A DNA stretch of 32,210 nucleotides, taken from the NCBI GenBank assembly GCA_964462345.1, contig CAYWXC010000001.1, positions 1-32,210 on the forward strand, in the 5' to 3' direction. Made by a program: the position numbers and the translations under genes. Below, one piece after another: positions 5,181 through 30,969 of the stretch. Numbering within the stretch: position 1 is the first letter of the stretch; each line of letters begins with the position of its first letter. Below the pieces are notes generated by a model. The model did not search any database. It had not been told where the DNA came from and was given only the letters and a program-made list of their open reading frames with translations. The DNA comes from Candidatus Micrarchaeota archaeon. Lineage in GTDB: Archaea; Micrarchaeota; Micrarchaeia; Micrarchaeales; CABMGC01.

Positions 5181-6161
5181 TCATTTATATTCTTTGCTTT
5201 CGAAGATGTCCGGAAGCGCTTCCTTGAATTTTTTAAGATCCTCTTCAATTTTTGGTATCCTTGACTTTGACCTCAGCGCTGCCGCAGGATGGAATGTGAT
5301 CAAAAATTTCCTTCCATCTCTTTCTACTATCTTGCCGTGGTTTTTCTCAACGCTTCCATCTCCGAGCATTGTATTGCATGCAAGATTTCCAAGAAGTATT
5401 ATTCCTTCAGGATTGATTGTGCTTAATTGCATCATAAGGAAAGGCATGCACGCTGCAACCTCTTCTTTAGTCGGAAGCCTATTTTTTGGCGGGAAGAACT
5501 GGACAATACTAAGGACATATGCTTTCTCTCTCTTAATCCCTGCGTTTTTCAGCATCCTGTTAAGAAGCTCTCCACTCCTCCCAACAAATGGCCTCATCCT
5601 TTTATCTTCTTCGGCTCCAGGGGCCTGTCCAAGTATAACTACTTTGGCATTCAATGGGCCTTCTCCCGGCACGAGCTTCTCACTAAGTTCCCAATCTCCT
5701 CTTCTTGATGGCAAAGAACTATATCGCTCATTTATCCTGGATATCACTTCTACTCTCCTAATATAATCATAAGCATGTCCCAACAACTCTCTTGAATTCC
5801 TAAACCGAATCTTTGATAGCGCAGTCCCATAATCTGCCCATTCAAAGGCTTTGTGCTCTGCTGAGATCTTAACATTCTTCTCATCTGCTTCTGCAAGGAA
5901 GAACTTTGCCCATTTGTGTATCTTCTCGCCTTTTTCCTGGAAAAAATACTCAATAACTTCGGAGAATCCGCTGATAATCTTTGGTTCCAACGCACTTTCT
6001 TCTCGTATCTCTCTGAGGGCTGCGATCTCTGGAGTTTCTCCCTCTTCTATATGGCCTTTCGGAAACCCGTAATCGCCTTTATTGCTTATCAGGAGCAGAA
6101 AAAGAAGCCTCTCTCCTTCTCTTTTGTAAACGACTGCACCGGCAGAAAACTCAAACTTCAT
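5181..6161 (-). CDS. Fusion protein: N-terminal Nudix hydrolase plus C-terminal family-4-like uracil-DNA glycosylase
   Basis: 326 aa. Nudix box GFPKGHIEEGETPEIAALREIREESAL at residues ~32-58. The C-terminal half has VVILGQAPGAEEDKRMRPFVGRSGELL (UDG motif A), FFPPKNRLPTKEEV, and ITFHPAAAL (motif B). Confidence 0.8.
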   Translation of the reverse strand: MKFEFSAGAVVYKREGERLLFLLLISNKGDYGFPKGHIEEGETPEIAALREIREESALEPKIISGFSEVIEYFFQEKGEKIHKWAKFFLAEADEKNVKISAEHKAFEWADYGTALSKIRFRNSRELLGHAYDYIRRVEVISRINERYSSLPSRRGDWELSEKLVPGEGPLNAKVVILGQAPGAEEDKRMRPFVGRSGELLNRMLKNAGIKREKAYVLSIVQFFPPKNRLPTKEEVAACMPFLMMQLSTINPEGIILLGNLACNTMLGDGSVEKNHGKIVERDGRKFLITFHPAAALRSKSRIPKIEEDLKKFKEALPDIFESKEYK

Positions 6162-8282: not shown

Positions 8283-9293
8283 ATGATCAACAGGAAAACA
8301 TCCATGCTTCTGCTTCTTTTTCTCTCATCTCTAATACTTCTTGCAGCATCTGTGTTGATGATACAACTTGTATCAGTTGCATATGGAGTCGGAGCGGGCG
8401 CATCTATACAGAGTGCAGCTGATCACTCCAACGTCACCAGCATATTGGAACCGTCAGCATCAAATCTTAATCCATTATACGCAACAATATTGTCGGAATA
8501 TATGGTATTTATTGTCGGAATAGGAATGCTAATTTCTTCAGTACTGATCTACAAAAACAAATCAAACATAGCAAATAGCGAAGCACGGGGATACATCTTC
8601 TTGAACGCATCTCTCACTCTGATATATACCTCACTGTTCTTCATTATTCCTATATTCTTTGTCAATATAATAAAAGCTCAGATAATATCTGTCAGCATGT
8701 ATTATTACATTGCAGTCTATTTTTCCATAATCGTCGCGTTATCGATAGATTCATACCTAATTCTATTAAAGTATATTAATCCAACATCATCGCGCAGGCG
8801 GAAGAGCCTAGCGATTGATCCATCAAAGCCTTACACCAACCTTCTCCGCATAAAGGATGAGATTTTTTCCCAATTGACTGGAAATGTTTTCATTGTCGAT
8901 AAGCACATGAATTCTGAAGGGATAGAAAACTTCTCCAGGCTCTTCATGGGCAATGAGAATGAGGTGCCTGAAGTAAAGATACTGACATCAAAAGAGATGC
9001 TTGATGCACGTTTCTCGAGGAACTATCTGGATTGCAAAGCCGAGGCCGAGAATTATGGCACTAAGATAAGCGTACTTGTCATGAACGACGAAGATGCAAT
9101 ATCTCAGCATGAGCGGTTCATATTCGATGACAAGAATGCGTACAAGGTTCCACCATTTAACATAATGCACAAGAAGAGCGAACATATCACACGGCTCAAT
9201 ATAAATGAGGCTAGAAGACGATTCAACGAGCTCCAGAAAAGGTCCATAAAATATGAGAACTTTGTATCAAAGAACGGCGCAAGGCCAAGATGA
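8283..9293 (+). CDS. Membrane protein of unknown function with a possible C-terminal PLD-like (MIT_C-type) domain
   Basis: 336 aa. Five or six TM segments in residues 1-165, then a soluble domain: FIVDKHMN...VKILTSKE...ISVLVMNDEDAISQHERFIFDDKNAYKV. This has an H-x-R-x4-D arrangement reminiscent of HxK(x)4D. The functional assignment is weak. Confidence 0.5.
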   Translation: MINRKTSMLLLLFLSSLILLAASVLMIQLVSVAYGVGAGASIQSAADHSNVTSILEPSASNLNPLYATILSEYMVFIVGIGMLISSVLIYKNKSNIANSEARGYIFLNASLTLIYTSLFFIIPIFFVNIIKAQIISVSMYYYIAVYFSIIVALSIDSYLILLKYINPTSSRRRKSLAIDPSKPYTNLLRIKDEIFSQLTGNVFIVDKHMNSEGIENFSRLFMGNENEVPEVKILTSKEMLDARFSRNYLDCKAEAENYGTKISVLVMNDEDAISQHERFIFDDKNAYKVPPFNIMHKKSEHITRLNINEARRRFNELQKRSIKYENFVSKNGARPR

Positions 9294-9955: not shown

Positions 9956-10026
9956 AGCCAGGAAAGGGAGTTGAACCCCTCTAAGCCGCTCTGCAGGCGG
10001 CTGCATAGCCGATCTGCCACCCTGGC
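9956..10026 (-). tRNA. tRNA-Cys (anticodon GCA)
   Basis: Minus-strand read: GCCAGGG TG GCAG ATCGGCT ATGC A GCCGC CTGCAGA GCGGC TTAG AGGGG TTCAACT CCCTT TCCTGGC T. The cloverleaf closes with a G13:A22 mismatch in the D stem. No intron and no encoded CCA. Confidence 0.8.
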
Positions 10027-10059: not shown

Positions 10060-11073
10060 TTATAACCCTTTCTGTGAACTTTTCCTCATTTTAACATTTT
10101 CTGCGGTGCCTATGCACGAACGGAGCATCTCTATTGCTTCAAGGGGGAATTTACCTACAGATGTCTCATTGCTCAGCATAATCCCATACGCGTTATTTGA
10201 GACTGCATTGGCTATATCGCTTACCTCTGCCCTTGTTGGAACAGGCTTACTAACCATGCTTGCCAGAACTTCCGTAGCCATTATGAAAGGAGTCTCTCCC
10301 CTATTAGCAGCATCGATTATCAACGCTTGCGCTTCAGGTAGTTTCTCAAAACTAACATTTAGGGCGAGATCTCCCCTGGCAACCATTATCATATCAGACT
10401 CATTAACAATATCATCTATATTTTCCAAAGCATCCTTTCTCTCGATCTTTGATATTATCTTGGAATTAGTGACTGCCTCTCTTAGCTTCCTCACATTTTC
10501 CGCGTTTCTTACGAACGACTCAGCTATAATCTCACACTTGTTCTCAAGAGCAAAGCCAAGCAAGGAGATATCATCTTCTGTAGGTGGCTCAGCATCAACT
10601 TCTAAGTCTTCTAAGCTTATCCCTTTTCTGCTTCCTATTAAGCCATCAAAATAAGATCTGCATCGTATCTCCCTTTTTCCTATTCCTATTATCGCTAGCT
10701 TAAGCTCTCCGTCTCCAATATATATGGCGGCGCCTGGCTTGCAGTATTTAATAAGGTCATATTCTATAGGTATAGAGCCTGGAACTACCATATCTCCCTC
10801 AAAAGAGAAGACGACTTCTTCTCCCTTTTTGATCTTCTTTGCCTCATCCATTTTCGCTATTCTTATTTTTGGCCCAGGAAGATCTGCCATTATATCAGTA
10901 ACCTTTCCAAGTTTTTTAGATATGCTTCGCACGTTGCTTATTGCCTTTGACCACTCCTCCTCGCTTCCATGAGAAAAATTAATCCTTACTATATCTGCCA
11001 TGCTTACTGCTTTCTCCAATGTTTCGTAATCCTTTATCGCAGGGCCATAAGTGATTATTATCTTCGTTTTCAT
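10060..11073 (-). CDS. pyk: Pyruvate kinase, A+B domains only (no C-terminal domain)
   Basis: 337 aa. IITYGPA, NFSHG, DLPGPKIRI, SKIERKDAL, MVARGDLA, ATEVLASM, PTRAEVSDIANAV and MLSNETSVGKFP are all canonical PK motifs. The protein ends about 20 aa after the last A-domain motif. Confidence 0.8.
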   Translation of the reverse strand: MKTKIIITYGPAIKDYETLEKAVSMADIVRINFSHGSEEEWSKAISNVRSISKKLGKVTDIMADLPGPKIRIAKMDEAKKIKKGEEVVFSFEGDMVVPGSIPIEYDLIKYCKPGAAIYIGDGELKLAIIGIGKREIRCRSYFDGLIGSRKGISLEDLEVDAEPPTEDDISLLGFALENKCEIIAESFVRNAENVRKLREAVTNSKIISKIERKDALENIDDIVNESDMIMVARGDLALNVSFEKLPEAQALIIDAANRGETPFIMATEVLASMVSKPVPTRAEVSDIANAVSNNAYGIMLSNETSVGKFPLEAIEMLRSCIGTAENVKMRKSSQKGL

Positions 11074-17236: not shown

Positions 17237-18373
17237 ATGATGCAGCGTAGTGACGAGGAAGAGAAGAAGATTTTGACTGTCTTGAGCATGAATAGCAGAG
17301 CATCTCTCAAGTTTATAGGAAACCAGATAGAGCTGAGCAAGCATCCAACATTCAGGAAAGTTAAAAAGATCGAAGCAAAATACAAGATCAAGCACCTTGC
17401 TGAGATAGACACAAAGCAGCTTGGCTTCTTCAGATTCCTGATTCTCGTAAGGTTCACTGGCAAAGCGCCTTCATCAAGTGATATCGAGGCTGCCGCTAAA
17501 AAGGAACCTAGAATACAGCTTTGCTTGGCATTGAACGGCGGTGAGTTCAACCTTCTTTTTTATGTATTGGCAGAAAACGATGAGATTATCAGCAAGATAA
17601 GGCTTAATCTCATAAGAGATCCTAAATTGATAGAGTATCCTGCAGAATGGTATGTTAGTCCATTCGATGAAACATACAATTTTGTACCACTTAGGGACGA
17701 GTTCATAGATGTGCTTAAGGAAAGGATAATGAAGAGGTCCGAAATAAGCAAGGCGCAAGAGCTTGCAGGTAAACGAAGCCAGATCTTGATGAGGGAATTC
17801 GCAGTTCTTAAGGAAATAAACAAGGATGCAAACATTGAGCTTAGTGCGATAGATAAAAAATACGGGTTCGATAAAGGAAGATCCCAATACTCCTACTATA
17901 AACTACTAGAAGAGGGACTTCTAAAGCGAACGACAATATCTATGCAGGGCCTTCCAATCAAATACGTTGGGCTCTTCATAGGAAAGATTATCAATTACAA
18001 AGAATTTGAGAAAAAGCGTCCGCAGCTTCTACATTACATAATAGATGACGCTTCTACTCCTAACAACAAATTTGCGCTTACAGGAGATATAACAACTCCA
18101 TTCAGCGCAATGTTATTTATGCCATCCATACGCAATGGAGATCTGGAAGAGATGGGTGAGAAGCTGAGAGAACTTCCAGGAATAGAGTTCACTACTCTCA
18201 TAATAACAAAGATAATACTCGGAAGTTTCTGCTATAGGAACTTTGATAATGCATATTCCTTACAGAAAGAGGTCCTGATAAGCCGTTATGGTGAAAAGAG
18301 GTCCAAAAAGACTGAGTACTCTGAGAAACATTTGGAAAAGAAAGAGTTCATAATCGAGCTTCCCAAAGCTTGA
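17237..18373 (+). CDS. Tandem (duplicated) Lrp/AsnC-like transcription regulator
   Basis: 378 aa. The first half has EEEKKILTVLSMNSRASLKFIGNQIELSKHPTFRKVKKIEAKYKI (wHTH) followed by an ACT-like region (FRFLILVRF...GEFNLLFYVLAENDEI). The second half repeats the layout (REFAVLKEINKDANIELSAIDKKYGFDKGRSQYSYYKLLEEGLL...YVGLFIGKI...). Confidence 0.55.
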   Translation: MMQRSDEEEKKILTVLSMNSRASLKFIGNQIELSKHPTFRKVKKIEAKYKIKHLAEIDTKQLGFFRFLILVRFTGKAPSSSDIEAAAKKEPRIQLCLALNGGEFNLLFYVLAENDEIISKIRLNLIRDPKLIEYPAEWYVSPFDETYNFVPLRDEFIDVLKERIMKRSEISKAQELAGKRSQILMREFAVLKEINKDANIELSAIDKKYGFDKGRSQYSYYKLLEEGLLKRTTISMQGLPIKYVGLFIGKIINYKEFEKKRPQLLHYIIDDASTPNNKFALTGDITTPFSAMLFMPSIRNGDLEEMGEKLRELPGIEFTTLIITKIILGSFCYRNFDNAYSLQKEVLISRYGEKRSKKTEYSEKHLEKKEFIIELPKA

Positions 18374-20702: not shown

Positions 20703-21305
20703 TAGGGAGTTGACATCTACATTCAATCACCTCGTCAATACCAAAACTCTCACATCACGTATCTTATCACATATGCGAGAAGACAAGAAAATACATAGAT
20801 TGAAACCCTTTTCAGACCCACAAACCTGTTCTTTGCCATTCCAAAGACCTCTTTGAGTCTTGAGAAAATACGTTCTATTGCCCACCTCTTCCCGTAATCT
20901 GGATCTTTTGGCGTTTCTGATTTTCTCCACCGCCTTCCGTTTCTGGATATGAGAGGAACTATTCCGCATCCCCTACATTCTTCTTTTATGTCAGCAGAAT
21001 CATATGCAGAGTCTGCAAGATACTTTGCATGGTAGCTGAAAGCAAATGTCTCCCCAACATACCCAAAAATTTTTGCAAACAGTGTCTTGTTATGTTTGCA
21101 GGTTCTATAGAGAACCCTAAAGGTATTTCGTGCTCAACCTCTGCCATTATGTGTATCTTGTATCCGAATCCGAGGACCTTTGCCTTTTCCTTGAAATCTT
21201 CCTGTTCCCTTTTTGACGGTGTTCTGTGTTCTCACCTTGCGGTCATTGCCGCTAGGTCGGAGGAATTAACATAGTAGTTCTTATCTAAAAGGGCGTTATT
21301 TTCAA
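20703..21305 (-). mobile_element. 5'-truncated, decayed IS4/IS5-superfamily element (transposase relic plus one terminal repeat)
   Basis: Hand translation of the minus strand gives ...NSSDLAAMTAR*EHRTPSKREQ..KVLGFGYKIHIMAEVEHEIPLGFSIEPANI, then a frameshift, then DKTLFAKIFGYVGETFAFSYHAKYLADSAYDS...DYGKRWAIERIFSRLKEVFG...YVIRYVM*. It carries the Y-2-R-3-E-6-K signature. The terminal 36 nt (20703-20738) match the end of the element at 25904-26965 at 33/36 positions, in inverted orientation. Confidence 0.7.
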
Positions 21306-21365
21306 TGGGTTTTTAACCAAAAGATTTAAATATCTTATTCTTCACTTATTTATTGCTGGTTTTAG

Positions 21366-21384
21366 AAAACTTTATAAAAGTTTT
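21366..21384 (+). promoter_or_regulatory. Palindromic TATA region upstream of tfb
   Basis: AAAACTTTATAAAAGTTTT is a perfect 19-bp palindrome centred on the TATA-like TTTATAAAA, ~54 nt upstream of the ATG. A GGTGGT Shine-Dalgarno-like element lies at 21418-21423. Confidence 0.4.
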
Positions 21385-21428
21385 TACAGAAAAGCGCAAT
21401 CATATTTAAAATTCAATGGTGGTTAAGA

Positions 21429-22439
21429 ATGGCAGACAAGAAGATTAAAAAACATGCCAAGAGAGTTTTGGGCGAAGGTCAATTTGAGGAAGATCAGAGA
21501 GGCCAAAGAGGAGCACAGCCATCCCCAACAGAGAATGTAAGACGATGTCCTAGCTGTAAGAGCCTTGATATAATATTTGATAATGAAAGAGGAGAGTACA
21601 TATGCAACAGTTGTGGTCTTGTAATAGAAGAGAATATAGTAGATTCAGGACCAGAGTGGAGAGCATTTGATTCTGACCAGAGAAATGCAAGAGCAAGAAC
21701 TGGTGCTCCGATAAAATACACAAAGCCAAACAGAGGGCTTGTGACAGAAATTGATATGTATAACAAGGATATCAGAGGAACGAAGCTGCCATCGAAGAGG
21801 CAGGCACAGCTCTACAGAATGAGAAAATGGCACAAGAGAGCAAGCATAGCAAACTCCAGCGAGAGAAACTATCTTGTAGCATTGCCAGAATTGAACAGAG
21901 TAGCAAGTTATCTTGGTTTGCCAGACAATATCAGAGAACAGGCTGCGCTTCTTTATAGACAGTGTGTAAAGAATAACCTTATCAGAGGCAGACCTATCGA
22001 GACAGTAGTAAACGCTGCATTGTACGCAACATGCAGGAGTGCAGGAATGCCCAGAACACTTGATGAGATATCTTCAATATCAAACGTTCCGAAGAAAGAG
22101 GTTGGTAGGACATACAGAGTAATAACACACGAACTAGGACTGAAGATACCACTCACAGACCCATCAGCATATGTGCCAAGGTACATAGCTGCATTGAAGC
22201 TCAGCGGAGATGCGCAGGAAAAAGCGTCCGTGCTTCTTAAGCAGGCAATGAAGAAAGGCCTTGTAAGCGGAAGGAGTCCGACAGGAGTATCTGCTGCTGC
22301 AGTTTACATTGCAGGAGCCTTGGTTGGTGAGAGAAGAACCCAGAAAGAAGTGGCGGATGTGGCAGGAGTCACAGAAGTCACTATCAGAAATAGATATAGA
22401 GAGCTTAAGAAAGAACTTGAGCTTGACGTGAATCTCTGA
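21429..22439 (+). CDS. tfb: Transcription initiation factor IIB (TFB)
   Basis: 336 aa. Zn-ribbon CPSCKS...CNSCG, a B-reader/linker region (GPEWRAF...), and two cyclin-fold repeats. The C-terminal HTH reads QKEVADVAGVTEVTIRNRYREL. Confidence 0.93.
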   Translation: MADKKIKKHAKRVLGEGQFEEDQRGQRGAQPSPTENVRRCPSCKSLDIIFDNERGEYICNSCGLVIEENIVDSGPEWRAFDSDQRNARARTGAPIKYTKPNRGLVTEIDMYNKDIRGTKLPSKRQAQLYRMRKWHKRASIANSSERNYLVALPELNRVASYLGLPDNIREQAALLYRQCVKNNLIRGRPIETVVNAALYATCRSAGMPRTLDEISSISNVPKKEVGRTYRVITHELGLKIPLTDPSAYVPRYIAALKLSGDAQEKASVLLKQAMKKGLVSGRSPTGVSAAAVYIAGALVGERRTQKEVADVAGVTEVTIRNRYRELKKELELDVNL

Positions 22440-22452
22440 TTAGAGGGAGAAG

Positions 22453-22896
22453 ATGGATAAGAGGGTTTTTATCTCCCTTTTCTTCCTTATTTCTATTCCT
22501 TTTGCAGCGCATGCCATTAATTCTGGCATATCTGCGAACAACTATACATTCCATGATGCTAATTCAATAATAAATAGCACTGAGCAGTACATACACCAGA
22601 TTAACGAGAGCGGCTATCTATTTATCAATCCAGATTTAAGTTCTGCTTACAGTTATCTTGACAAGGCAAAGGCTATAGCCCACTATTCACCAGTAGCGGC
22701 AATATCCTATGCAAATCAGGCAGAAGATTCTGCTGCATCTGCATACGCATACATACGATCTTTTTATGAATACGCGCTATTAGGAATAACATTGTTTACT
22801 TTAGCCATGGCTGTGCTTCTTTACAGATTCATGAAGCCAGTAAATACCACTAAAGACATTAAACGAAGAAAGTCTGCTAAGAAGAAAACTAGATAA
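22453..22896 (+). CDS. Secreted, C-terminally membrane-anchored protein, unknown function
   Basis: 147 aa. An N-terminal signal peptide (FISLFFLISIPFAAHA), a C-terminal TM helix (ALLGITLFTLAMAVLLYRF), and a basic tail (KRRKSAKKKTR). Confidence 0.5.
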   Translation: MDKRVFISLFFLISIPFAAHAINSGISANNYTFHDANSIINSTEQYIHQINESGYLFINPDLSSAYSYLDKAKAIAHYSPVAAISYANQAEDSAASAYAYIRSFYEYALLGITLFTLAMAVLLYRFMKPVNTTKDIKRRKSAKKKTR

Positions 22897-23893
22897 CCGC
22901 ACTCTCGGTAAGCTCAAAGCTTTGTTCTGCCATGTTTGCAGATATCCTTGCATTTATACCATAAGGAATGGTAAACATTGGCGTTGTATGTCCGAAATCC
23001 ATACCTGAAATAATAGGGAAGTCATATCCTTTTGTTGCCTCTATTATTATTTTATCAAGAGGGTAATTTTGGTCATCTGTTTTATACTCAAGGTCATTTG
23101 TTCTTCCAACAATCATGCCTTTAATCTCATCCAAGATTCCAAGCATCTTCATTTGGTGCAGGGATCGGTCTGTCAGTGCCGTTGTGCTTTCTGTATCCTC
23201 CCAGAATAATATCTTATCTGAGAAATCTGGAAGATACTCAGTTCCTGCCAAATCAAGAAATGTAAATATGTGACCTCCGACAAGCTTCCCTTCTGCGCTG
23301 CCCTCCTTTAGAGTCTTCCAAGCAGTAGCATAGAGCTTATCTTCTGGAATCTCAAGCTCCCTTAGAAATGTGAATCTGCTTGAAGGCATTATTTTTAATC
23401 GGTCATTTTTCTCGGTGAGCACCTTATTGAAGTAGTTCAAAGTGTATCCAGGATCTTCTCCGGGAAGTGCAAATCGCGTATTGAGGTTCGGACCATAAAA
23501 TGTTGCCAGCCCTGTTTTTGTGTGTATTGCGCAATGGAGGAAAGTTATGTCACTGAAGCCGCAGAATATTTTGGGGTTCTTTCGGATTATGTTGTAATCT
23601 ATGGAATCGAGTAGCTCGTTTGAATTATAACCACCTCTGGCTGTTATTATGGCCTTGATTTCCTTGTTTTCAAACATCTCCATCAGATCAGCAAGGCGTT
23701 CTTCTGAAGTGCCAGCTTTATGCCCAAGGTCCTTGTTATAATTTCTGCCAAAATGTACCTTGTAACCCATCGATTCAAGCTGTCTAACTTTGAGATTTAC
23801 AAGATCTAATCTGTTCTTTGTTAGGGGAGAAGCTGGAGTTATGACACCTATTGTATCTCCTTTCTTCAGAGATTCTGGCTTGATAACCTCCAT
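22889..23893 (-). CDS. Peptidase S66 family (LD-carboxypeptidase LdcA / MccF-like)
   Basis: 334 aa. GDTIGVITPASP, ARGGYNSNELL, the nucleophile context CGFSDITFLH, the Glu context ILFWEDTES...DRSLHQM, and the His context MDFGHTTPMFTIPYG. Confidence 0.85.
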   Translation of the reverse strand: MEVIKPESLKKGDTIGVITPASPLTKNRLDLVNLKVRQLESMGYKVHFGRNYNKDLGHKAGTSEERLADLMEMFENKEIKAIITARGGYNSNELLDSIDYNIIRKNPKIFCGFSDITFLHCAIHTKTGLATFYGPNLNTRFALPGEDPGYTLNYFNKVLTEKNDRLKIMPSSRFTFLRELEIPEDKLYATAWKTLKEGSAEGKLVGGHIFTFLDLAGTEYLPDFSDKILFWEDTESTTALTDRSLHQMKMLGILDEIKGMIVGRTNDLEYKTDDQNYPLDKIIIEATKGYDFPIISGMDFGHTTPMFTIPYGINARISANMAEQSFELTESAVI

Positions 23894-23932
23894 ACAAGAT
23901 CAATTTTTACATTAGATGGAACATCTAAAATA

Positions 23933-25216
23933 CTACCTGCGGATTATATCTCCATATGTAGCTTTGAATAAGCTTGCAGAGATGTTTTGCATTGCTTCTT
24001 CTAGGCTCTCAGTCTTTGATGTTGAAGCTACTTCCACACCATTCCTGTAGTCTTTTGCTGGCACGTACAGTGACATAGCACGCCTTAAGCGTTCATCTTC
24101 AGTCATGGCGCTGATCTTTTGGGATGGAAATATCTGAGATAATATAGAATATAGTATCTCGCTTTCCCGTACGCTATGCCATGCATTATTAAGATCGAAA
24201 ATGGGCATCAATATTCCAAGCTCTCTTTTAAGCGCGTTTTCAAGACCTTGCGCTTCTTCGGGAAAATATTTCTCAGTAGCCCCATATCTCTGTGTGAAGA
24301 TTACCTTATCAGATAATGCCAACGTGAAGAGAGCTAAAGGATATCCATATCTTGGAGTTAGAGTTGCCCTTACCGAATTATTTATGATATCTTCAGGAGT
24401 AATTAGCGCTCCTCCGTTTTGCTGAAAGCCTCTTTCTGCCATGCTCTTCCTAAGCAATGTGCTTCTACCGGATGAATCTATCACACGTATCTCTGGCACA
24501 ATGTACCCGTTTGCTAATAACTCCTTTAACACATCGCTATATAGCCCATTTATTGAATTTCCACCGCTTTCAGATACGATATTCCTTGATATTGCCCTAT
24601 GAAAATCTACAAGAGAAATTCCATTGCTTGAAGGACCCCTTGCAAAACCTGAAGGTAGATCATTCTCAAAGACACGCTCTATTCTCGCCTTAAGTCCGGC
24701 CTGAATTGGCTGAAGATGTTGCAAAGCTATTTGTACTCCTTCTTGCGGCTTTCCTACCCCTATGCTAAATACTCTTTCACCATTTGGTACTACTATTGTA
24801 AAATAAGATGATTTCTCAACGCTCAGGCAAGTCATATCATCAATAGTGTATGTTGCTATTGCGGCTCTGGAGGAATAACCTTCTTTATTAAGCATCTCTG
24901 AAAGGACATTTCCCACAAGCTGGAAAACAACATTCTCAAATCTAGGAGTCGCTATCTGCCGGGCATACAATATGCTAGTCTCGCCTGGCTTGATTAAGCC
25001 ATGATCAGCGGCTATTTCTTCAATCCTGTTTATAGTTAGTGGTATATTGCTCTGCTCTAGAAATCTGTCTGAAACTTCTGCAACTGCTCCGCTCCTTTTC
25101 AGCCTCAAAAGTGCTGCCATCTCACCGAATTCAGAGTAAAAATGTCTAGCCGCATGAGATCCATCTTTGAAACTAGACCTGGCTGGCTCTCTATTCAATC
25201 GCACATTAGCTGCCAT
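23933..25216 (-). CDS. Hypothetical protein (427 aa), no recognisable motif
   Basis: A long uninterrupted ORF, co-directional and tightly spaced with its neighbours: 11 nt from the upstream gene and 39 nt to the S66 peptidase gene. No P-loop, Rossmann or metal-binding signature was seen by eye. Confidence 0.6.
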   Translation of the reverse strand: MAANVRLNREPARSSFKDGSHAARHFYSEFGEMAALLRLKRSGAVAEVSDRFLEQSNIPLTINRIEEIAADHGLIKPGETSILYARQIATPRFENVVFQLVGNVLSEMLNKEGYSSRAAIATYTIDDMTCLSVEKSSYFTIVVPNGERVFSIGVGKPQEGVQIALQHLQPIQAGLKARIERVFENDLPSGFARGPSSNGISLVDFHRAISRNIVSESGGNSINGLYSDVLKELLANGYIVPEIRVIDSSGRSTLLRKSMAERGFQQNGGALITPEDIINNSVRATLTPRYGYPLALFTLALSDKVIFTQRYGATEKYFPEEAQGLENALKRELGILMPIFDLNNAWHSVRESEILYSILSQIFPSQKISAMTEDERLRRAMSLYVPAKDYRNGVEVASTSKTESLEEAMQNISASLFKATYGDIIRR

Positions 25217-25227
25217 GCAATCACGTA

Positions 25228-25635
25228 TTAAAATGAAAGTTTAGAGCCTCTGGCAGTACTGCCAAATGCACGAACTTTATCTAATTCGGCAGAAACTGCC
25301 GCGTCAAGATCTTTAATGCTACTCCCACTGTTTAATGCATTTTCTGCAGCGCTATTTCTTGCTTGTGAAGCAGCAGCGTTTGCAGATTCTGCAACTGCAG
25401 GGATACCAACATTATAAGTTGCTAGGCGTTCATACCATCTCGCAGCAGTACCAAAGAATACTGCAGAATTAAAGAGTTGGCCTTCGGCTTGCGCTTTTAT
25501 GGCCTTTGATATATATGACTCGGCCCTGTCTGCGATATTATTGTCAGAAATTATCTGAAACCCATTTCTATCTACTTTTATATATTCTCTTTCTTGAGCC
25601 TTTGGCTCTTTTAAAATAATACCCATATAAATCAC
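25228..25635 (-). CDS. Hypothetical small helical protein with an Ala/Ser-rich C-terminal half
   Basis: 135 aa, first gene of the 25635-22889 minus-strand unit. An alternative start is the ATG three codons in (MGIILKE...). Confidence 0.5.
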   Translation of the reverse strand: MIYMGIILKEPKAQEREYIKVDRNGFQIISDNNIADRAESYISKAIKAQAEGQLFNSAVFFGTAARWYERLATYNVGIPAVAESANAAASQARNSAAENALNSGSSIKDLDAAVSAELDKVRAFGSTARGSKLSF

Positions 25636-25903
25636 TTTACAAACTTTAATCTGAATTAGAAAAACAAATCACAGCGGCAAACGCCGCATTTAGTTCCATT
25701 TTATAAAAAGAGTATTGTTGGGTCTATTGACCCAATATCTGAATAAGGATAAGATTAACATTACTAATGCAAGAATAAACATTATCTGCTTTGAATGAAA
25801 TCTGCATAATTTAATTATTTTATTACAGTTATTTAAAGCTTTTCTTCAAAGTGGGGTGTCCCACAACTCCTTAAAAACTTCCACTAATCCCGAAGGATTA
25901 TAA

Positions 25904-26965
25904 TAAGAACTTGACAAATTAATAATCTTATTGTTGAATATGTTCATTGGAGTTTTCTCTCTCTTTTCTGTCGTCGGAAATTGGTAGTGGAGAGTCTCCT
26001 GAGCAACAGATGCAACGAGCGCATCAGTCGCCTGCCAGGAGAAAGACAACATGGAAATATATGAGATAAAGACTAAAATAGTAGAGGTTTGGGCAGCTGC
26101 ACGGATGATCGTGCAGAAGTATGGACATATGAAGAAATTCGCGAAACATATAGTTGCACTTGTGATAAAACAGAACGAGAACTTAAGAGATATCAAACTC
26201 GCAGAGTTCTTGGAGAAGATTCGATTGGCAAAATCCTTGGTTATCGGAAGAAACCAGACACAACGACATTCTCCAAGGTTAGGGAACGTATGGATCCGCA
26301 GATGATGGAAGATCTGCAACTGTGGATTGTTTCAGATCTTCTGAAAGGAAGGCAGGCGAGGTTAATCGCGCAGGACAGTACCGATGTACCTACATATTCG
26401 CAGAAAGACAAGGAAACAAGATGGGGCATAGAACACCTTCTAGAACGGAACAACTACTGTATAAGTCGGATAAAGGCAAGGAGAAGAAATTCTTCTACGG
26501 GTACAAACCACACATGGTTGTTGATGTGGAAACAGATACGCCAATTGCGGTAATGGTAGTTCCAGCAAACATTAATGACAAAAAACTCTTCGAACCTTTG
26601 TATGAGAAAAAGAGGTAGATTGCAGTATTGCAATACCTCGCAAAGTTCCTTGCTGATGCACAGTACCACTCTTCAAAGATAAGGGCCAGACTCAGGAATG
26701 ATGGCGTAACTCATATCATTCCTTTCAATGGGAATCGGTGGCAGAAGACAGAAAAGCCAAATGATCCTGAATATGGGAAAAGATGGGCTGTTGAGCGCGT
26801 CTTCTCAAGGCTGAAGGGGATTTTCGGTCTTGGATTCAACAGGTTTTTTAGCTTCAGAAAGGCCAGGATCCATTCCCTTTCCTGCGTGATCGGATATCTC
26901 CTCAGATACAATATGTGAAGGTTTTGGATTTGACGAGGTGATTGAATGTAAATGTCAAGTTCCTA
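25904..26965 (+). mobile_element. IS4/IS5-superfamily insertion sequence, full length (~1.06 kb) but with a decayed transposase
   Basis: Terminal inverted repeats TAAGAACTTGACA (25904-25916) and TGTCAAGTTCCTA (26953-26965) match at 12/13. The internal transposase reading frames carry DDE and YREK motifs. No target duplication could be recognised. Confidence 0.75.
26051..26918 (+). pseudogene. DDE transposase (IS4/IS5 type) broken by at least two frameshifts and one in-frame TAG
   Basis: Frame 2: ...KLAEFLEK. It shifts at ~26220 to frame 1: ILGYRKKPDTTTFSKV...LIAQDSTDVPTYSQKDKETRWG. It shifts again in the G-run at ~26428 to frame 0: GHRTPS...FFYGYKPHMVVDVETDTPIAVMVVPANINDKK...KKR. TAG at 26616-26618 is followed by ...FLADAQYHS...YGKRWAVERVFSRLKGIFG. 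Confidence 0.75.
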
Positions 26966-27025
26966 CCTTTTAGAGCTCAAGAAAGCCTTTTAATAACAAA
27001 ACCCCAAGTACATTAGAGGGATTCT

Positions 27026-28009
27026 ATGACCTTCGAAAGTGAGAATGATTGGAGAGACGAGATTGCTGATGTCATAATAAAGATAGCGAATCTCATCTCA
27101 TACCTCATATTATTTGAGCTTGATATAGCTATCAAGAGCCAGGGCATACTTGCAAAGGTGTACATGAAGTTGGAGAGCCAGAAAGTAGAACGTGAAGTGG
27201 CTCCTTACATTGGTGCTGTGGTGTTTCTATCATTCAACGGTAAAGAAGTTACCAGAAATAATATAATACCTATAATCAAAGCTGTAGGAATTGAGCCTAG
27301 CGGCAATTACCTGGATTTTGTTTCGTCTCTCAACCTTAAGAATAATATAATCGCATACGCACCAGCAGTATACTTCCTTAAGGTTGTTAGGAAGGATGTG
27401 AATCTTGGAAATTTAATGAAGGTAATAAGTGCCATGGGGATATCTCCTGATGAGGAGATAGGAAGGTATGTTCTTGATGTATACTCCAACTCTGAGAAAC
27501 GGGCTGAAGAGCCTCCAATCACCAAGACCGAAGAGAAGTTCATGAAGATGACAAAATCTGCAGCCATACTGATGGGCAAAGTCATGATAACAGAGCTTGA
27601 CAGAACTTTTGAGCATAATGATATAGAAGAGCATATCAAAAATGGTTTCATACCTTATTTAGCTGCTGTTGGAACCTTGGTTTACGCTGGTAAAGACATC
27701 AATATAATAGGCAGCGAAAAGTTTAATGCGTACATAAGCAATATGATTTCGGCTGTGGGATTCACCATTGATAAGTCGATGCTTGAGTACATATCCTCGT
27801 TCAACTATGGGAACTCTGGATTCTCGTACATATCTGGAATATATTATCTTATAACCGTAGACAAAGAGTTGACCTTGGATAACCTTGTTACAGTTGTCAG
27901 GTCTCTTGGATTGCAGGCTGACGAAGCCCTTGCAGGGTACATACTTACTATCTATAAAGATTACACAAAGAATGAGTTTGGGACAAAAGTCAATAATAAC
28001 CATTCTTAA
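27026..28009 (+). CDS. Protein with four tandem modules resembling the N-terminal domain of archaeal ribosomal stalk protein P1 (L12); the last ~10 codons are IS-derived
   Basis: 327 aa. R1 (61-102) YIGAVVFLSFNGKEVTRNNIIPIIKAVGIEPSGNYLDFVSSL. R2 (111-152) YAPAVYFLKVVRKDVNLGNLMKVISAMGISPDEEIGRYVLDV. R3 (211-258) YLAAVGTLVYAGKDINIIGSEKFNAYISNMISAVGFTIDKSMLEYISS. R4 (268-310) YISGIYYLITVDKELTLDNLVTVVRSLGLQADEALAGYILTIY. Compare the archaeal P1 pattern Y.YAAL.L...GKEI.E.N....L.AAGVE.DE.R...LV.AL. There is no acidic C-terminal tail. Confidence 0.55.
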   Translation: MTFESENDWRDEIADVIIKIANLISYLILFELDIAIKSQGILAKVYMKLESQKVEREVAPYIGAVVFLSFNGKEVTRNNIIPIIKAVGIEPSGNYLDFVSSLNLKNNIIAYAPAVYFLKVVRKDVNLGNLMKVISAMGISPDEEIGRYVLDVYSNSEKRAEEPPITKTEEKFMKMTKSAAILMGKVMITELDRTFEHNDIEEHIKNGFIPYLAAVGTLVYAGKDINIIGSEKFNAYISNMISAVGFTIDKSMLEYISSFNYGNSGFSYISGIYYLITVDKELTLDNLVTVVRSLGLQADEALAGYILTIYKDYTKNEFGTKVNNNHS

Positions 28010-28912
28010 ATATGTTATGAAGCACAGCGATGTAGCTAATCGCGGTATCGATTCTTTCGTCTAGTTTTTGCCACAGTTTCAATCCAAATGCACGTTTATC
28101 AACAGAGAAACCACTCTCGGATCTCTCTCGTTGATAGTAATGAACAAGGTATTGCAATAGATATGACATCATTTGTCTGGATATATCCCTCCATTTAGAT
28201 GATCCATTCACCATCGTATTGCTTTTTGGTATGATGTACAGGATTGTTTCATCATCAAAGCACTTCGGGGTGGAGTGGTAACTGTAGTACCTGTCAAGTC
28301 GTGCGCTGTTAACTTTTATGCCTGACGCTTTTTCTACAGATTCAACATCTTTATTGCGTTATCGAACGCTTCTTTCTCCGAGCTTATCCCAGAATTGTAA
28401 CAGACGTACAATCCTGTTTTTATATCGATAAGCTTCGTCACTGTCAATCTGAAGTCAGCGCCGTCGCCATTCACATCAACTTTTCTACCACAGCTACGTT
28501 TTACTGAGAGAACTAACATATTGTGCATCACCATTCTAACAATGTCATCCTAATATAGCCTTTCAATTGTTTTATAGTAGATGTCGACTCCACAAAACGC
28601 ACCGAAAAGCGACATCAACCCTTCCACCTCGAAAATGGACTTCAAGAGGAGTGCTACTACCTTCTGTTGCAGAGAAAGTTTAGCGGGTCTTCCAAAACAA
28701 GATATATTTACATGTATTATATATACAGCTGATTTTGCAAGGGAATTCGGTTCCCTTGCTACGTATCTTATTTGTTCCGCGTATTCTTTCTCGTATCCCT
28801 TCCAATCCGTAAGATTCTTTGTCAACGTTTTACTGTAAATTTCCATAATGACCTTGAACTCTTTGAATAACCTTCGGAATTGTCTATTCGTTAACCTTTT
28901 GTGTTTTGCCAT
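27990..28912 (-). pseudogene. DDE transposase fragmented into at least three reading frames
   Basis: ORFs 28912-28550, 28534-28334 and 28214-27990, plus my read-through of 28330-28215 (...KASGIKVNSARLDRYYSYHSTPKCFDDETILYIIPKSNT MVNGSSKW...), line up as one gene. The C-terminus HYYQRERSESGFSVDKRAFG...AVLHNI carries Y-2-R-3-E-6-K. Confidence 0.6.
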
Positions 28913-28972
28913 CGCAAGACTATCGGATAGAAAGATATTTAAATATATATTTAATATATATTAAATGATACG

Positions 28973-29140
28973 ATGAAAAAGATAGCTCTCAATAAGAGAA
29001 CAGAATTAAAAGTTCACGGAATTGTCGGATTCATGATAAGAAAAGTAACACCGTTTGGGACTGGTGCAAAGGTAGACTGCCCAAAAGAATACATAGGAAA
29101 AGAAGTTTACCTAATCGTCACTAATAGAAAGATCGATTAA
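28973..29140 (+). CDS. Small IS-associated protein (55 aa), resembling the archaeal 'putative transposon-encoded protein' (DUF2080) family
   Basis: Hand translation: MKKIALNKRTELKVHGIVGFMIRKVTPFGTGAKVDCPKEYIGKEVYLIVTNRKID*. The VTPFG.GAKVD.PKEYIGK.VYLI core matches my recollection of DUF2080. It is too short for the supplied ORF track. Confidence 0.5.
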   Translation: MKKIALNKRTELKVHGIVGFMIRKVTPFGTGAKVDCPKEYIGKEVYLIVTNRKID

Positions 29141-30078
29141 CTACTTTTGTCCCAGAGTCAGGCTCTGTTCCAATCGGAGACTGGTGAAATAGACGACACA
29201 AACCGCTAATTGTTTCGTCGCCTCTTTTATCAAGAATTTCCATCTCTTTTTCTCGGTATTTGCATCAAGATAGTCCATGAGTCCTGCTTTCTCTGCAGGC
29301 GTCATCTTAATTGCAGAATGCCGTCGGATGAAGTTGTAGTAAATAAACAACAGACCAAATTGGACGGCCCTCGTTATTGGATTCTTGAACCCTCTTCTCT
29401 GATGGGTCTTGCTCCTTACAAAATTCTGCAGTCTCTCTGCAAGATTATTATATTTCTTGTCCTCGAAATTCTTACATCTGTGTGTATGGTCATAGTACCA
29501 CTGTACTCCGAATATTTTCTTCAGAACCGCAGGATATTGGAACGCGCCGTCGAAAACCATTAGCAGCGCATTCATGAACTGCCCGATCAACTTTTCTGCA
29601 TCCTTCTTGCGTCTTGTCGGAGAAAAATAGAAGAATGCAAATCTTGTCTCTGCATCAATCGCATCCCACAAATAGAAGAATCGGCCCATCATTTTGAAGA
29701 AAAGTTCATCTATGTTTATCTTCTGAATTATAGTTGGCAAAAGTTTGAAGGTGAATCTACAGAGAAGTTTGCAATATTCGAAAACCCACCTTAAAATACT
29801 GTTTTTTTGAGACGTCTTCGTATATTGCAATGGTTCTCAGACTTGCCCCTCCGCCGACGTAAAGTCCCATACATCTGATTATTAATTCGGGAGCCTTCTG
29901 CTTATGTTTAAATCCGTCGTCAAAACAGAATCTCCTGCCACATTTTCTGCATAGGAACTTCTGTACCTTTCCCCTTTCTTTGGTGGTTCTCGTACCATCC
30001 TTTATTATCTGTGTCGATTTACAATATATACAACTGGCCGTTGTATCGCCTTTGTAACCGGTCGTTACTTATTGGCAT
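29141..30078 (-). pseudogene. IS6-family DDE transposase, interrupted by frameshifts
   Basis: The C-terminal 229-aa frame has DELFFKMMGRFFYLWDAIDAETRF (D), MVFDGAFQYP (D), YNNLAERLQNFVR (E) and YNFIRRHSAI. The Zn-ribbon/HTH N-terminus (CIYCKSTQIIKDG...QKFLCRKCGRRF...LRTIAIYEDVSKK) lies in another frame. The junction is the A7 run at 29803-29809. The Zn-ribbon frame has no start codon, and the only upstream ATG (30078) is in a third frame. Confidence 0.7.
29153..29160. repeat. Left copy of the IS6 target site duplication (CAGAGTCA)
   Basis: Identical octamer directly abutting the IS6 left inverted repeat. Confidence 0.85.
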
Positions 30079-30174: not shown

Positions 30175-30969
30175 TTGATGAGTAGCATAACACAAAGGGC
30201 CACTACCAAGGCGGAACCTCTTATAAGTATTCAAAGAGTAGGTACAGATGGTAGGAGGTTTAGTGGCAATTTTGATCTCAGGAACATTGCCTACACCCAA
30301 GAGCTCATTAGGGAGGCCGTAGCTGCGTCATGGTCTAAAGCGCTTTCAGAACTGCCTAAAGATAAGGCTGATAGAATAATATCAAAGTTAAACGAGATGA
30401 GTCCAGGCACTGCTGAAAGGTCCAGGACCACATTTAAGGTAACTCCAACTGTCTATCTTATAGGTGGGATGGCAGTCGCATCATATGCACTAGCGACAAT
30501 TTCAGCCATTAATAATGTTGATTCAAATGCACAATTAATCAAAAGCGCAACCACAAGAGGGTCTGATGATCTTGATCTTGTCTGTTTACCTGATCTCTTA
30601 GGGAATGTAACTGTTCCAGGATATTCTTCTATTAAAACATATGAAAGGAATTTAGTAAGGCACATTCCTTCTGTTACTGTTATAGGGGCTCTTAGTTCTG
30701 AAAACGCTTCAATTCTCCCATATCTAGACATATACAGCCCGCATGGAAAGTCTAGGGCAAGATCCATGAATGGAGAGGTATTCCCAATATCTAGCATCAG
30801 ATATACCTTTTCGTTAACTTTTGGAGATGTTACAATCCAGGTAGCTCCAATTGAAGCACTGATGGCAATGAAGCGCATAGCATCTGCAGAAGGCTCTGGC
30901 AGAACCGATAAAGATAGAGAAAAGGACGCGCGCGATCTTACTGCCCTAACTGCGATACAGCGTAGATAA
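30175..30969 (+). CDS. Pol-beta-fold nucleotidyltransferase, AbiEii/DUF1814/MenT-like
   Basis: 264 aa. YLIGGMAVASYA...TRGSDDLDLVC (GG...R.S.DxD), a later YLDIYSPHG, and C-terminal APIEALMAMKRIASAEGSGRTDKDREKDARDLTAL (the K..A...R....KD..D pattern). The likely start is the ATG at 30178. The frame is open upstream to 30058, inside IS6. Confidence 0.5.
   Translation: MMSSITQRATTKAEPLISIQRVGTDGRRFSGNFDLRNIAYTQELIREAVAASWSKALSELPKDKADRIISKLNEMSPGTAERSRTTFKVTPTVYLIGGMAVASYALATISAINNVDSNAQLIKSATTRGSDDLDLVCLPDLLGNVTVPGYSSIKTYERNLVRHIPSVTVIGALSSENASILPYLDIYSPHGKSRARSMNGEVFPISSIRYTFSLTFGDVTIQVAPIEALMAMKRIASAEGSGRTDKDREKDARDLTALTAIQRR

What the first reader, a model, noticed from the sequence alone, without database searches (positions are those of the whole stretch)
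27026..28009. Protein made of four tandem ribosomal-stalk P1 N-terminal-domain-like modules without the acidic factor-binding tail
The four internal repeats (residues 61-102, 111-152, 211-258, 268-310) share the pattern Y-x-(A/G)-(A/I)-x-x-x-L-...-(G/R/D)K(E/D)(V/I/L)-...-N(I/L)-...-(I/V)-x-(A/S)-(V/M/L)G(I/F/L)-x-x-(D/S)-...-(Y/F)(V/I)L.

That pattern is very close to archaeal P1/L12 N-termini (Y.YAAL.LH.AGKEI.EEN....L.AAGVE.DE.R...LV.AL). The modules come as two pairs (R1-R2, a ~58-aa linker, R3-R4), which would mimic two P1 dimers.

The conserved acidic/hydrophobic C-terminal tail that recruits translational GTPases is missing. Speculatively, such a protein could occupy P0 spine sites or bind free P1 and so modulate or block factor recruitment.

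The repeats themselves are directly visible. The P1 relationship is my by-eye judgement.
Basis: partly seen in the sequence, partly recalled or inferred. Interest (0 to 1): 0.7.

Follow-up and report, generated by a model that had tools for sequence, protein, structure and literature searches.

The report
Tail-less tandem ribosomal-stalk P1-like protein
This gene from a tiny symbiotic archaeon (Micrarchaeota) encodes a protein built from four copies of the domain that normally anchors the ribosome's factor-recruiting stalk protein P1, but without the recruiting tail; it belongs to a previously undescribed family of unknown function found so far only in that lineage.

Summary
ORF 27026-28009 (+, 327 aa) contains four repeats at the stated positions. 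They are homologous to the N-terminal dimerisation domain of archaeal stalk protein P1: a profile of 90 modules hits P. horikoshii P1 (3a1y_A) at E=2.9e-11, and the top 8 PDB hits are all P1/P2. In the model, one module superposes on P1/P2 domains at target-normalised TM 0.57-0.68. None of 150 family sequences has the hinge or the factor-binding tail.

The anatomy needs one correction. The repeat unit is about 158 aa: a conserved 30-35-residue amphipathic helix followed by two P1-like modules, present twice.

The family has 149 clusters at 50% identity, in a half-size (~160 aa) and a double (~320 aa) form. Nearly every named member is from Micrarchaeota. Genomes carry several paralogs, with no conserved operon. 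Close orthologs give dN/dS of about 0.1.

It is not a stalk protein in the functional sense. It scores below the curated cut-offs, has no tail, is not in the stalk operon, and helix 4 appears absent. The most likely reading is a self-contained scaffold derived from the stalk domain.

The parts
27026..28009 (+). Complete coding sequence, 327 aa (36.7 kDa, pI 5.1), stop codon included. All-helical, with no signal peptide or transmembrane segment.
   Evidence: ORF list. Physicochemical values. AF2 model pLDDT 78.6, pTM 0.79. Orthologs L001/L003/L004 give dN/dS ~0.10; window versus these gives pN 0.15 and pS 0.79.
27026..27499 (+). Unit 1 (residues 1-158): leading helix + module A (R1) + module B (R2).
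   Evidence: HMM built from half-size relatives hits residues 9-158, E=3.7e-30. Unit model pLDDT 90.1, pTM 0.77.
27500..27979 (+). Unit 2 (residues 159-318): leading helix + module A (R3) + module B (R4).
   Evidence: The same HMM hits residues 158-315, E=1.1e-32. Unit-1 and unit-2 types are distinct in all 47 double-size proteins tested.
27047..27139 (+). Leading amphipathic helix of unit 1 (residues 8-38), carrying the family 'EL.R'-type motif (FELDIA here). It is followed by short helices up to residue ~57.
   Evidence: DSSP H6-38 in the unit model. Conserved hydrophobic stripe and motif. Helix-only hhalign of unit 1 against unit 2, E=8e-12. No PDB or P0 similarity.
27197..27346 (+). R1: P1-NTD-like module A of unit 1 (residues 58-107), with helices at 60-70, 77-86 and 93-100.
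   Evidence: Module profile domain E=4e-17. Aligns to Pho P1 residues 1-43 at z=11.9. HMMER alignment to 3a1y_A residues 3-35.
27347..27499 (+). R2: P1-NTD-like module B of unit 1 (residues 108-158), with helices at 108-120, 127-136 and 143-159.
   Evidence: Module profile domain E=1.2e-16. z=10.1 against Pho P1.
27524..27640 (+). Leading helix region of unit 2 (residues 167-205; motif TELDRT).
   Evidence: DSSP H167-194 and H197-205. Profile homology to the unit-1 helix region.
27647..27817 (+). R3: module A of unit 2 (residues 208-264). It carries a 7-residue insertion (IIGSEKF) between helices 1 and 2 that is conserved in the orthologs.
   Evidence: Module profile domain E=3.8e-11. Insertion seen in the alignments. 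Weakest match to Pho P1 (z=2.7).
27818..27973 (+). R4: module B of unit 2 (residues 265-316).
   Evidence: Module profile domain E=1.1e-15. z=9.3 against Pho P1 and z=17.6 against R2.
26988..27020 (+). Possible expression signals, read by eye only: a TATA-like TTTTAATAA at 26988-26996 (~34 nt upstream of the ATG) and GAGGG at 27016-27020 (5 nt upstream of the ATG).
   Evidence: Sequence read directly. Not tested; no archaeal promoter tool was available.

Best explanation
This is an intact, selected gene of a Micrarchaeota (DPANN) archaeon. It encodes a soluble, all-helical protein that arose by re-use of the ribosomal stalk protein P1 dimerisation domain.

Shown:
- The protein is two tandem copies of a ~158-aa unit.
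- Each unit is a conserved 30-35-residue amphipathic helix followed by two three-helix modules that are homologous to helices 1-3 of the aP1 N-terminal domain.
- The hinge and the C-terminal factor-binding tail are absent throughout the family.
- The family exists in a single-unit and a double-unit form, has several paralogs per genome and has no fixed gene neighbourhood.

Inferred:
- Within a unit the two modules pair with each other the way two aP1 N-terminal domains pair, through an alpha1/alpha1' core.
- The unit's own leading helix packs onto that pair. It would supply what helix 4 and/or the P0 spine helix supply in the real stalk, so each unit is a closed, single-chain 'helix plus pseudo-dimer' body.
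- The double-size protein is the covalent equivalent of a dimer of half-size proteins.

Because it has no tail it cannot recruit EF1A, EF2 or aIF5B. It most likely acts as a stalk-derived protein-protein scaffold or adaptor, not as a working stalk component. Whether it still touches the ribosome is open.
For: Gene reality: intact ORF; dN/dS ~0.10 among close orthologs and pN 0.15 against pS 0.79 for more distant ones; 149 representative clusters at E<=1e-3 in an exhaustive HMMER search.

Unit architecture: 54 of 55 double-size proteins contain exactly two hits to an HMM built from half-size members only; the window protein is hit at residues 9-158 and 158-315. Helix regions are homologous on their own, E=8e-12. 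Modules A and B are homologous, E=2.3e-15.

P1 origin: 3a1y_A at E=2.9e-11 and 8.4e-11, with every top hit a P1/P2 protein. TIGR03685 hits the protein at 1e-8 and 18 of 90 single modules. Best Foldseek probability and TM go to P1/P2 NTDs, 0.57-0.68.

No tail in 0 of 150 members.

Compact single body: unit model pLDDT 90.1 / pTM 0.77, with the leading helix at pLDDT 82-94; full-length pTM 0.79.

alpha1-centred packing: in the real stalk, the P0 helix residues at -5, -2, +2 and +5 contact alpha1/alpha1' of the dimer (PMC3616719). alpha1 is the best conserved part of the modules. The leading helix has a conserved 3-4 spaced hydrophobic stripe. MI-APC couplings are enriched for A-alpha1/B-alpha1 and helix/alpha1 pairs (weak).

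Lineage restriction and paralogy.
Against:
- The covariation signal is dominated by one hub column and is confounded by subfamily structure.
- The leading helix has no detectable similarity to P0 spine helices or to anything in the PDB.
- Foldseek E-values for the P1 matches are themselves non-significant (2-5). The structural argument rests on rank, probability and TM-score together with the sequence profile.
- The 'scaffold/adaptor' function has no positive evidence. There is no conserved partner gene; three KaiC-type ATPases follow the gene in only one lineage.
- I could not show that the same genomes retain a canonical tailed P1 and P0.
Confidence: 0.6

Rival explanations
1. Stalk competitor or cap. 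The module pairs keep the P1 ability to clamp a P0 spine helix, or to heterodimerise with free P1. By occupying stalk sites with tail-less dimers, the protein lowers the number of factor-recruiting tails per ribosome and so tunes or silences translation.
For: - The modules are derived from exactly the domain that dimerises and binds the P0 spine.
- alpha1, which is the P0-contacting and dimerising helix (PMC3616719), is their best conserved segment.
- The tail is absent in all members.
- The two-pair layout is reminiscent of adjacent dimers on P0.
- In eukaryotes, free and ribosome-bound P1/P2 exchange (PMC3794596), so an exchangeable pool is a known concept.
Against: - Each pair has its own conserved amphipathic helix, confidently modelled in the same compact domain. 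That helix would be expected to occupy the hydrophobic alpha1/alpha1' surface.
- Helix 4 of the canonical dimer interface is missing.
- Modules are only ~25-35% identical to aP1.
- The family is multi-copy, variable in context and lies outside ribosomal operons.
- One copy is truncated in a sister MAG, which argues against a core translational role.
- No binding data exist.
Confidence: 0.2
2. It is a genuine ribosomal stalk protein, as the IMG automatic name 'ribosomal protein L12E/L44/L45/RPP1/RPP2' given to relatives implies.
For: JGI/IMG gives that name to P0002 and P0159. There is a weak TIGR03685 hit.
Against: - It scores 35.4 bits against a curated cut-off of 100 for TIGR03685, and 13.1 against 28.1 for Pfam Ribosomal_60s.
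- It has four modules instead of one.
- It has no hinge and no C-terminal LF-type tail, which is the element that binds EF1A, EF2 and aIF5B.
- It is not next to L11/L1/P0 genes.
- NCBI annotates members as hypothetical proteins.
Confidence: 0.03
3. The repeats belong to a different helical family, for example EF-hand / S100 / calmodulin-like pairs, and the P1 resemblance is convergent helical-repeat similarity.
For: - Foldseek's lowest E-values for the unit model are calmodulin, troponin C and centrin (E 1.3-1.6).
- There are weak sub-threshold PDB sequence hits to S100-A2, caltubin and calmodulin (E 0.08-0.6).
- One of 90 modules touches an EF-hand Pfam model (E=0.004).
Against: - Those fold hits have TM ~0.2, probability <=0.14 and rmsd 13-15 A, whereas the P1/P2 hits have TM 0.57-0.68 and probability up to 0.90.
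- The sequence profile E-value to aP1 is about 10 orders of magnitude better than to any EF-hand protein.
- The loop consensus G-(K/R)-(D/E)-(I/P) has no DxDxDG calcium-binding pattern.
Confidence: 0.03
4. Not a functional gene: a decaying or chance ORF in an IS-rich, rearranged region.
For: The ORF is flanked by transposase fragments on both sides. The neighbourhood is inverted relative to a sister MAG, and that MAG's copy is truncated after about residue 74.
Against: - The 327-codon frame is intact, with full-length orthologs at 74-75% and 53% identity.
- Strong purifying selection is seen.
- The AF2 models are confident.
- The invariant columns fall in the module cores.
Confidence: 0.02

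Closest known systems
Archaeal ribosomal stalk protein aP1 (L12P), N-terminal dimerisation domain; structure 3A1Y (P. horikoshii P0-(P1)2(P1)2(P1)2); NCBIfam TIGR03685
   Same: Each of the four modules is homologous to helices 1-3 of the aP1 NTD. The shared signature is Y-x-x-A-A-x-x-L...G-K-E-I...N-I...A-x-G-(I/V)-x-P-D. Profile E=2.9e-11. One module of the model superposes on 3a1y_A at TM 0.67.
   Different: - Four modules per chain instead of one.
- Helix 4 is not evident.
- Each pair of modules is preceded by a family-specific long helix.
- There is no Ala/Pro/Glu hinge and no C-terminal factor-binding tail (0 of 150 members).
- It scores below the curated cut-off (35 against 100 bits).
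- It is not in a ribosomal operon.
- It is multi-paralog and lineage-restricted.
Eukaryotic P1/P2 heterodimer N-terminal domains (2LBF, 4BEH, 4V6I, 4V7E; Pfam PF00428 Ribosomal_60s)
   Same: Same fold and more distant homology (P2 E=1.6e-4 to 2.8e-3; TM 0.57-0.68). As with P1 and P2, two diverged copies of the domain (module A and module B) sit side by side. This is reminiscent of an asymmetric heterodimer.
   Different: Here the two copies are fused in one chain. The SDDDMGFGLFD-type tail is absent. Pfam Ribosomal_60s does not recognise the protein (E=0.14).
P0 (uL10) C-terminal spine helices that carry the P1 dimers
   Same: By analogy only. The leading helix of each unit is long and amphipathic, with hydrophobic positions spaced 3-4 residues apart. 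This resembles the -5/-2/+2/+5 pattern of P0 helices that contacts alpha1/alpha1' (PMC3616719).
   Different: No sequence similarity was detectable. Neither the unit profile nor the helix-only profile hits any P0 chain in the PDB. The pattern is generic for amphipathic helices.

Membership tests
Archaeal stalk protein P1 (TIGR03685 / COG2058 / PF00428) | N-terminal helical dimerisation domain homologous to the P1/P2 NTD | tested here: met
   Met at domain level. Module profile against 3a1y_A gives E=2.9e-11, and the top 8 PDB hits are all P1/P2. 18 of 90 single modules hit TIGR03685. Foldseek TM is 0.57-0.68 to P1/P2 NTDs.
Archaeal stalk protein P1 (TIGR03685 / COG2058 / PF00428) | Score above the curated family cut-off | tested here: not met
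   TIGR03685: 35.4 bits against a cut-off of 100. PF00428: 13.1 bits against 28.1, E=0.14. 0 of 90 modules hit PF00428.
Archaeal stalk protein P1 (TIGR03685 / COG2058 / PF00428) | Four-helix NTD in which helices 1, 2 and 4 form the dimer interface (PMC3794596, PMC4379515) | tested here: inconclusive
   Helices 1-3 are present in every module. After helix 3 of module A the chain runs straight into helix 1 of module B, and module B ends after its third helix (DSSP). Helix 4 therefore seems absent, but the coordinates could not be inspected.
Archaeal stalk protein P1 (TIGR03685 / COG2058 / PF00428) | Flexible hinge plus conserved C-terminal tail (LF motif) that binds EF1A, EF2 and aIF5B | tested here: not met
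   A regex and acidic-run scan found 0 of 150 family sequences with a tail-like C-terminus. The proteins end right after the last module helix.
Archaeal stalk protein P1 (TIGR03685 / COG2058 / PF00428) | Single-domain protein of ~100-110 aa, encoded with L11/L1/P0 (general knowledge of archaeal ribosomal gene order) | tested here: not met
   327 aa with four modules. The neighbours are IS fragments, TFIIB and an LD-carboxypeptidase. The S15 and S3Ae genes in the window lie ~10 kb away and are not stalk genes.
Archaeal stalk protein P1 (TIGR03685 / COG2058 / PF00428) | Binds P0 spine helices as a dimer and sits on the 50S subunit | not testable with these tools
   This needs binding assays or multimer modelling. 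No complex prediction was available.
P0 spine helix (tested for the leading helix of each unit) | Sequence similarity to the P0 C-terminal helices | tested here: not met
   The unit profile and the helix-only profile give no P0 hit at E<=10.
EF-hand / S100 / calmodulin-like | Helix-loop-helix with a DxDxDG-type calcium-binding loop; significant profile or fold match | tested here: not met
   Only sub-threshold hits (E 0.08-0.6; TM ~0.2). The loop consensus G-(K/R)-(D/E)-(I/P) lacks the calcium ligands.
Known anti-phage defence proteins (PADLOC) | Match to a defence-system model | tested here: not met
   No hit for the window protein.

The most novel reading that the evidence does not exclude
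A lineage-specific, tail-less 'stalk mimic'. In Micrarchaeota, an expanded family derived from P1 docks on P0 spine helices or sequesters P1. This changes the number of factor-recruiting tails per ribosome, and would be a previously unknown way of regulating or silencing translation at the level of the stalk in a genome-reduced symbiont.
Probability: 0.17. Interest if true: 0.8.

Novelty: new variant of a known kind. Interest (0 to 1): 0.55.

Why it matters
The P1/P2 N-terminal domain is, to my knowledge, known only as the anchor of the ribosomal stalk. I found no paper describing a non-stalk use of it or this family.

This family has about 150 clusters at 50% identity. In it the domain has been duplicated, fused, given its own helix and stripped of its functional tail.

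If the proteins are closed scaffolds, they are a clean example of a ribosomal domain recruited to a new job in DPANN archaea. They would also serve as a natural single-chain model of the P1 dimer.

If they still bind P0 or P1, they would be the first candidate regulators acting on stalk composition in archaea.

Practically, the IMG name 'ribosomal protein L12E/.../RPP1/RPP2' for these genes is misleading. It could inflate ribosomal-protein counts in Micrarchaeota genome-completeness or marker analyses.

Tried and rejected
1. Whole-chain Foldseek against PDB gave only noise (E>0.2, TM<0.2, mostly membrane proteins). This is uninformative for a multi-module chain.
2. Foldseek of the unit model against the viral BFVD library gave nothing.
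3. Pfam on the whole protein and on 90 single modules: Ribosomal_60s was not detected.
4. BLASTP self-comparison found no off-diagonal hits. It was replaced by shuffle statistics and profiles.
5. The idea that the leading helix derives from the P0 spine has no sequence support. I keep it only as a structural analogy.
6. The idea that the double-size protein is a fusion of two pre-existing half-size paralog types is not supported. 58 of 67 half-size proteins are neither unit-1-like nor unit-2-like. A single old tandem duplication fits better.
7. A conserved operon or partner was not found. Contexts differ between lineages. The KaiC-type ATPase trio follows the gene only in the L002/L005 lineage.
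8. There is no defence-system link (PADLOC) and no relatives in viral contigs. A3 was too divergent for that scan.
9. Word-indexed protein searches with the unit profile and the module profile recovered only 6 proteins and 1 protein. I therefore could not retrieve canonical P1 proteins of Micrarchaeota for comparison.
10. The Naganuma 2010 paper (PMC2836080) is not held. Interface details were taken from PMC3616719, PMC3794596 and PMC4379515.
11. MI-APC covariation gave only a weak, hub-dominated signal.
Full report
**1. The observation**

The window is archaeal: it encodes TFIIB/TFB, S15, S3Ae, archease and a class-I aminoacyl-tRNA synthetase. The relatives of the ORF in reference genomes are almost all labelled Candidatus Micrarchaeota or Micrarchaeia. 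One 11.5-kb contig is labelled Marsarchaeota, but its copy is 96-99% identical in protein to Micrarchaeota copies, so it is probably mis-binned.

A single-module profile gives domains at residues 60-107, 109-156, 209-263 and 267-313 (corrected for a 3-residue offset). Within this protein alone, five of six module pairs exceed all 2000 shuffles (z 6.5-17.6); R3-R4 does not (z 1.4). The two halves of the protein align at z=21. BLASTP self-comparison misses the repeats.

**2. Corrected anatomy**

An exhaustive HMMER search with the three closest full-length sequences found 149 representative clusters (50% identity level) at E<=1e-3. They fall into two size classes, about 150-170 aa and about 300-350 aa.

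An HMM built only from the half-size class hits the window protein twice, at residues 9-158 (E=3.7e-30) and 158-315 (E=1.1e-32). It hits 54 of 55 double-size proteins exactly twice. The repeat unit is therefore about 158 aa: a long leading helix, then module A, then module B.

- Modules A and B are homologous (hhalign 98.5%, E=2.3e-15).
- The leading-helix regions of unit 1, unit 2 and the half-size proteins are homologous on their own (97.5%, E about 1e-11, also after independent re-alignment). In the window protein alone they are not significantly similar (z=0.5).
It has a hydrophobic stripe and an 'EL.R' motif.
- Unit-1 and unit-2 sequences form distinct types in all 47 double-size proteins tested, while 58 of 67 half-size proteins are neither type. 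This fits one old tandem duplication.

**3. Relationship to P1**

- A profile of 90 non-redundant modules searched against all PDB sequences returns P. horikoshii aP1 NTD (3a1y_A) at E=2.9e-11. Eukaryotic P2 follows at 1.6e-4 to 2.8e-3 and P1 at 0.03-0.1. The first eight hits are all stalk proteins.
- The whole-unit profile gives 8.4e-11.
- In the reverse direction, NCBIfam TIGR03685 (archaeal P1) hits the protein at E=1e-8 in three stretches, and hits 18 of 90 isolated modules.
- R1, R2 and R4 align directly to P. horikoshii P1 residues 1-43 at z=9-12.
- An AF2 model of unit 1 built on 69 sequences has pLDDT 90.1 and pTM 0.77. In Foldseek against PDB, no E-value is significant for so short a domain. 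The highest probabilities and target-normalised TM-scores nevertheless belong to 3a1y_A (0.90 / 0.67), wheat P1 (0.87 / 0.68, rmsd 1.8 A), human 4v6x_Cs (0.61) and 2lbf_A (0.57). The calmodulin-type hits that rank first by E-value have TM about 0.2.

I take the homology to the P1/P2 N-terminal domain as established.

**4. What it lacks**

- No member of the family (0 of 150) has a hinge or a C-terminal tail resembling the factor-binding motif. The chains end just after the last module helix.
- The protein is far below the curated cut-offs (35.4 against 100 bits for TIGR03685; 13.1 against 28.1 for Pfam Ribosomal_60s).
- The canonical domain has four helices, with helices 1, 2 and 4 forming the dimer interface (PMC3794596; PMC4379515). 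In the model each module shows only three helices.
- The gene is not in a stalk operon.

On these defining features it is not a stalk protein P1, despite the IMG name given to some relatives.

**5. Gene status and context**

- Close orthologs (L001, L003, L004) give dN/dS about 0.10. The window copy against these gives pN 0.15 with saturated pS 0.79. The gene is under purifying selection.
- A TATA-like TTTTAATAA lies about 34 nt upstream of the ATG and a GAGGG lies 5 nt upstream (read by eye, untested).
- The copy in the window is flanked by decayed IS elements.
- A sister MAG contig (L006) is collinear but rearranged. Window 21286-25851 is inverted there, and the gene breaks off after about residue 74, joining DNA that matches window 30136 onward. 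The same MAG keeps a full-length paralog (L003).
- Other genomes also hold several copies: two divergent double-size genes in L004, one double and one half-size gene in L005, and two tandem half-size genes in L013.
- Neighbourhoods differ between lineages. Three KaiC-type ATPases follow the gene only in the L002/L005 lineage.
- No defence-system match, no viral relatives, and no literature on the family.

**6. How it most likely works**

Shown: a soluble (no TM segment, pI 5.1), compact, all-helical protein (full-length pTM 0.79) made of two [helix + two P1-like modules] units and lacking the recruiting tail.

Inferred: modules A and B of a unit pair like two aP1 N-terminal domains. The unit's own helix lies on the alpha1/alpha1' surface, which in the real stalk contacts the P0 spine residues at -5, -2, +2 and +5 (PMC3616719). 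It may also stand in for the missing helix 4.

Support for this inference is indirect:
- alpha1 is the best conserved segment.
- The leading helix is conserved, amphipathic and confidently placed.
- Covariation weakly favours A-alpha1/B-alpha1 and helix/alpha1 couplings.

The helix has no sequence similarity to P0. I could not inspect the coordinates.

If this inference is right, each unit is a closed single-chain analogue of 'spine helix plus P1 dimer', and the protein is a scaffold derived from the stalk domain rather than an open clamp. I give it about 0.2.

**7. Verdict**

This is a new variant of a known kind: a known domain in a new, uncharacterised, lineage-restricted architecture. Interest is moderate to fairly high for ribosome and DPANN specialists. 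It is limited by the lack of any functional evidence.

Noticed in passing
window 25904-26965: Decayed IS element. A DDE_Tnp_1-type transposase is split over three reading frames (26089-26553, 26322-26618, 26628-26918). Related copies lie next to the paralog in L003 (57-325) and in L006 (1518-2004, 2337-2548).
   Followed up: partly
window 28550-29830 (-): IS240/IS6-type DDE transposase ORF (229 aa) with a separate 120-aa ORF upstream of it. Together with the element on the other side, it brackets the P1-like gene.
   Followed up: partly
window 21286-25851 versus L006 5379-9943; L006 10001-10250: The block carrying TFIIB, an LD-carboxypeptidase and a 427-aa unknown protein is inverted relative to a sister Micrarchaeota MAG (93.7% nucleotide identity). 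In that MAG the P1-like gene is cut off after about residue 74 and joins DNA matching window 30136 onward. This looks like an IS-associated rearrangement or deletion.
   Followed up: partly
window 5046-5154 (-): An Rfam tRNA match (51 bits) covers the full model but spans 109 nt, so it is probably an intron-containing archaeal tRNA. ARAGORN did not call it; it found only tRNA-Cys at 9956-10026.
   Followed up: no
window 5181-6161 (-): A single 326-aa ORF combining an N-terminal NUDIX domain with a C-terminal uracil-DNA-glycosylase-superfamily domain.
   Followed up: no
window 10060-11073 (-): A pyruvate kinase of only 337 aa that matches the barrel domain alone. No C-terminal domain hit was found.
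   Followed up: no
L005 10952-13201 (also L002 980-2507): Three tightly spaced single-domain KaiC-type ATPase genes directly follow the double-size P1-like gene in this lineage, and are followed by a sugar epimerase/dehydratase gene. The arrangement is not seen in the other lineages examined.
   Followed up: partly
L004 (4576-5520 -, 6056-7048 +); L013 (7902-8495 +, 8512-9042 +); L005 18605-19093: Several paralogs of the family occur per genome: a divergent pair of double-size genes, a tandem pair of half-size genes, and a half-size copy 8 kb from a double-size copy.
   Followed up: partly
L004 (JAMCSO010000002.1): The contig is labelled Candidatus Marsarchaeota, but its P1-like protein is 96-99% identical to copies from Micrarchaeota MAGs and metagenomes. 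It is probably a mis-binned contig.
   Followed up: no
window 8283-9293 (+), 17237-18373 (+), 23933-25216 (-), 30175-30969 (+): Sizeable ORFs (336, 378, 427 and 264 aa) with no Pfam match at E<=0.001.
   Followed up: no
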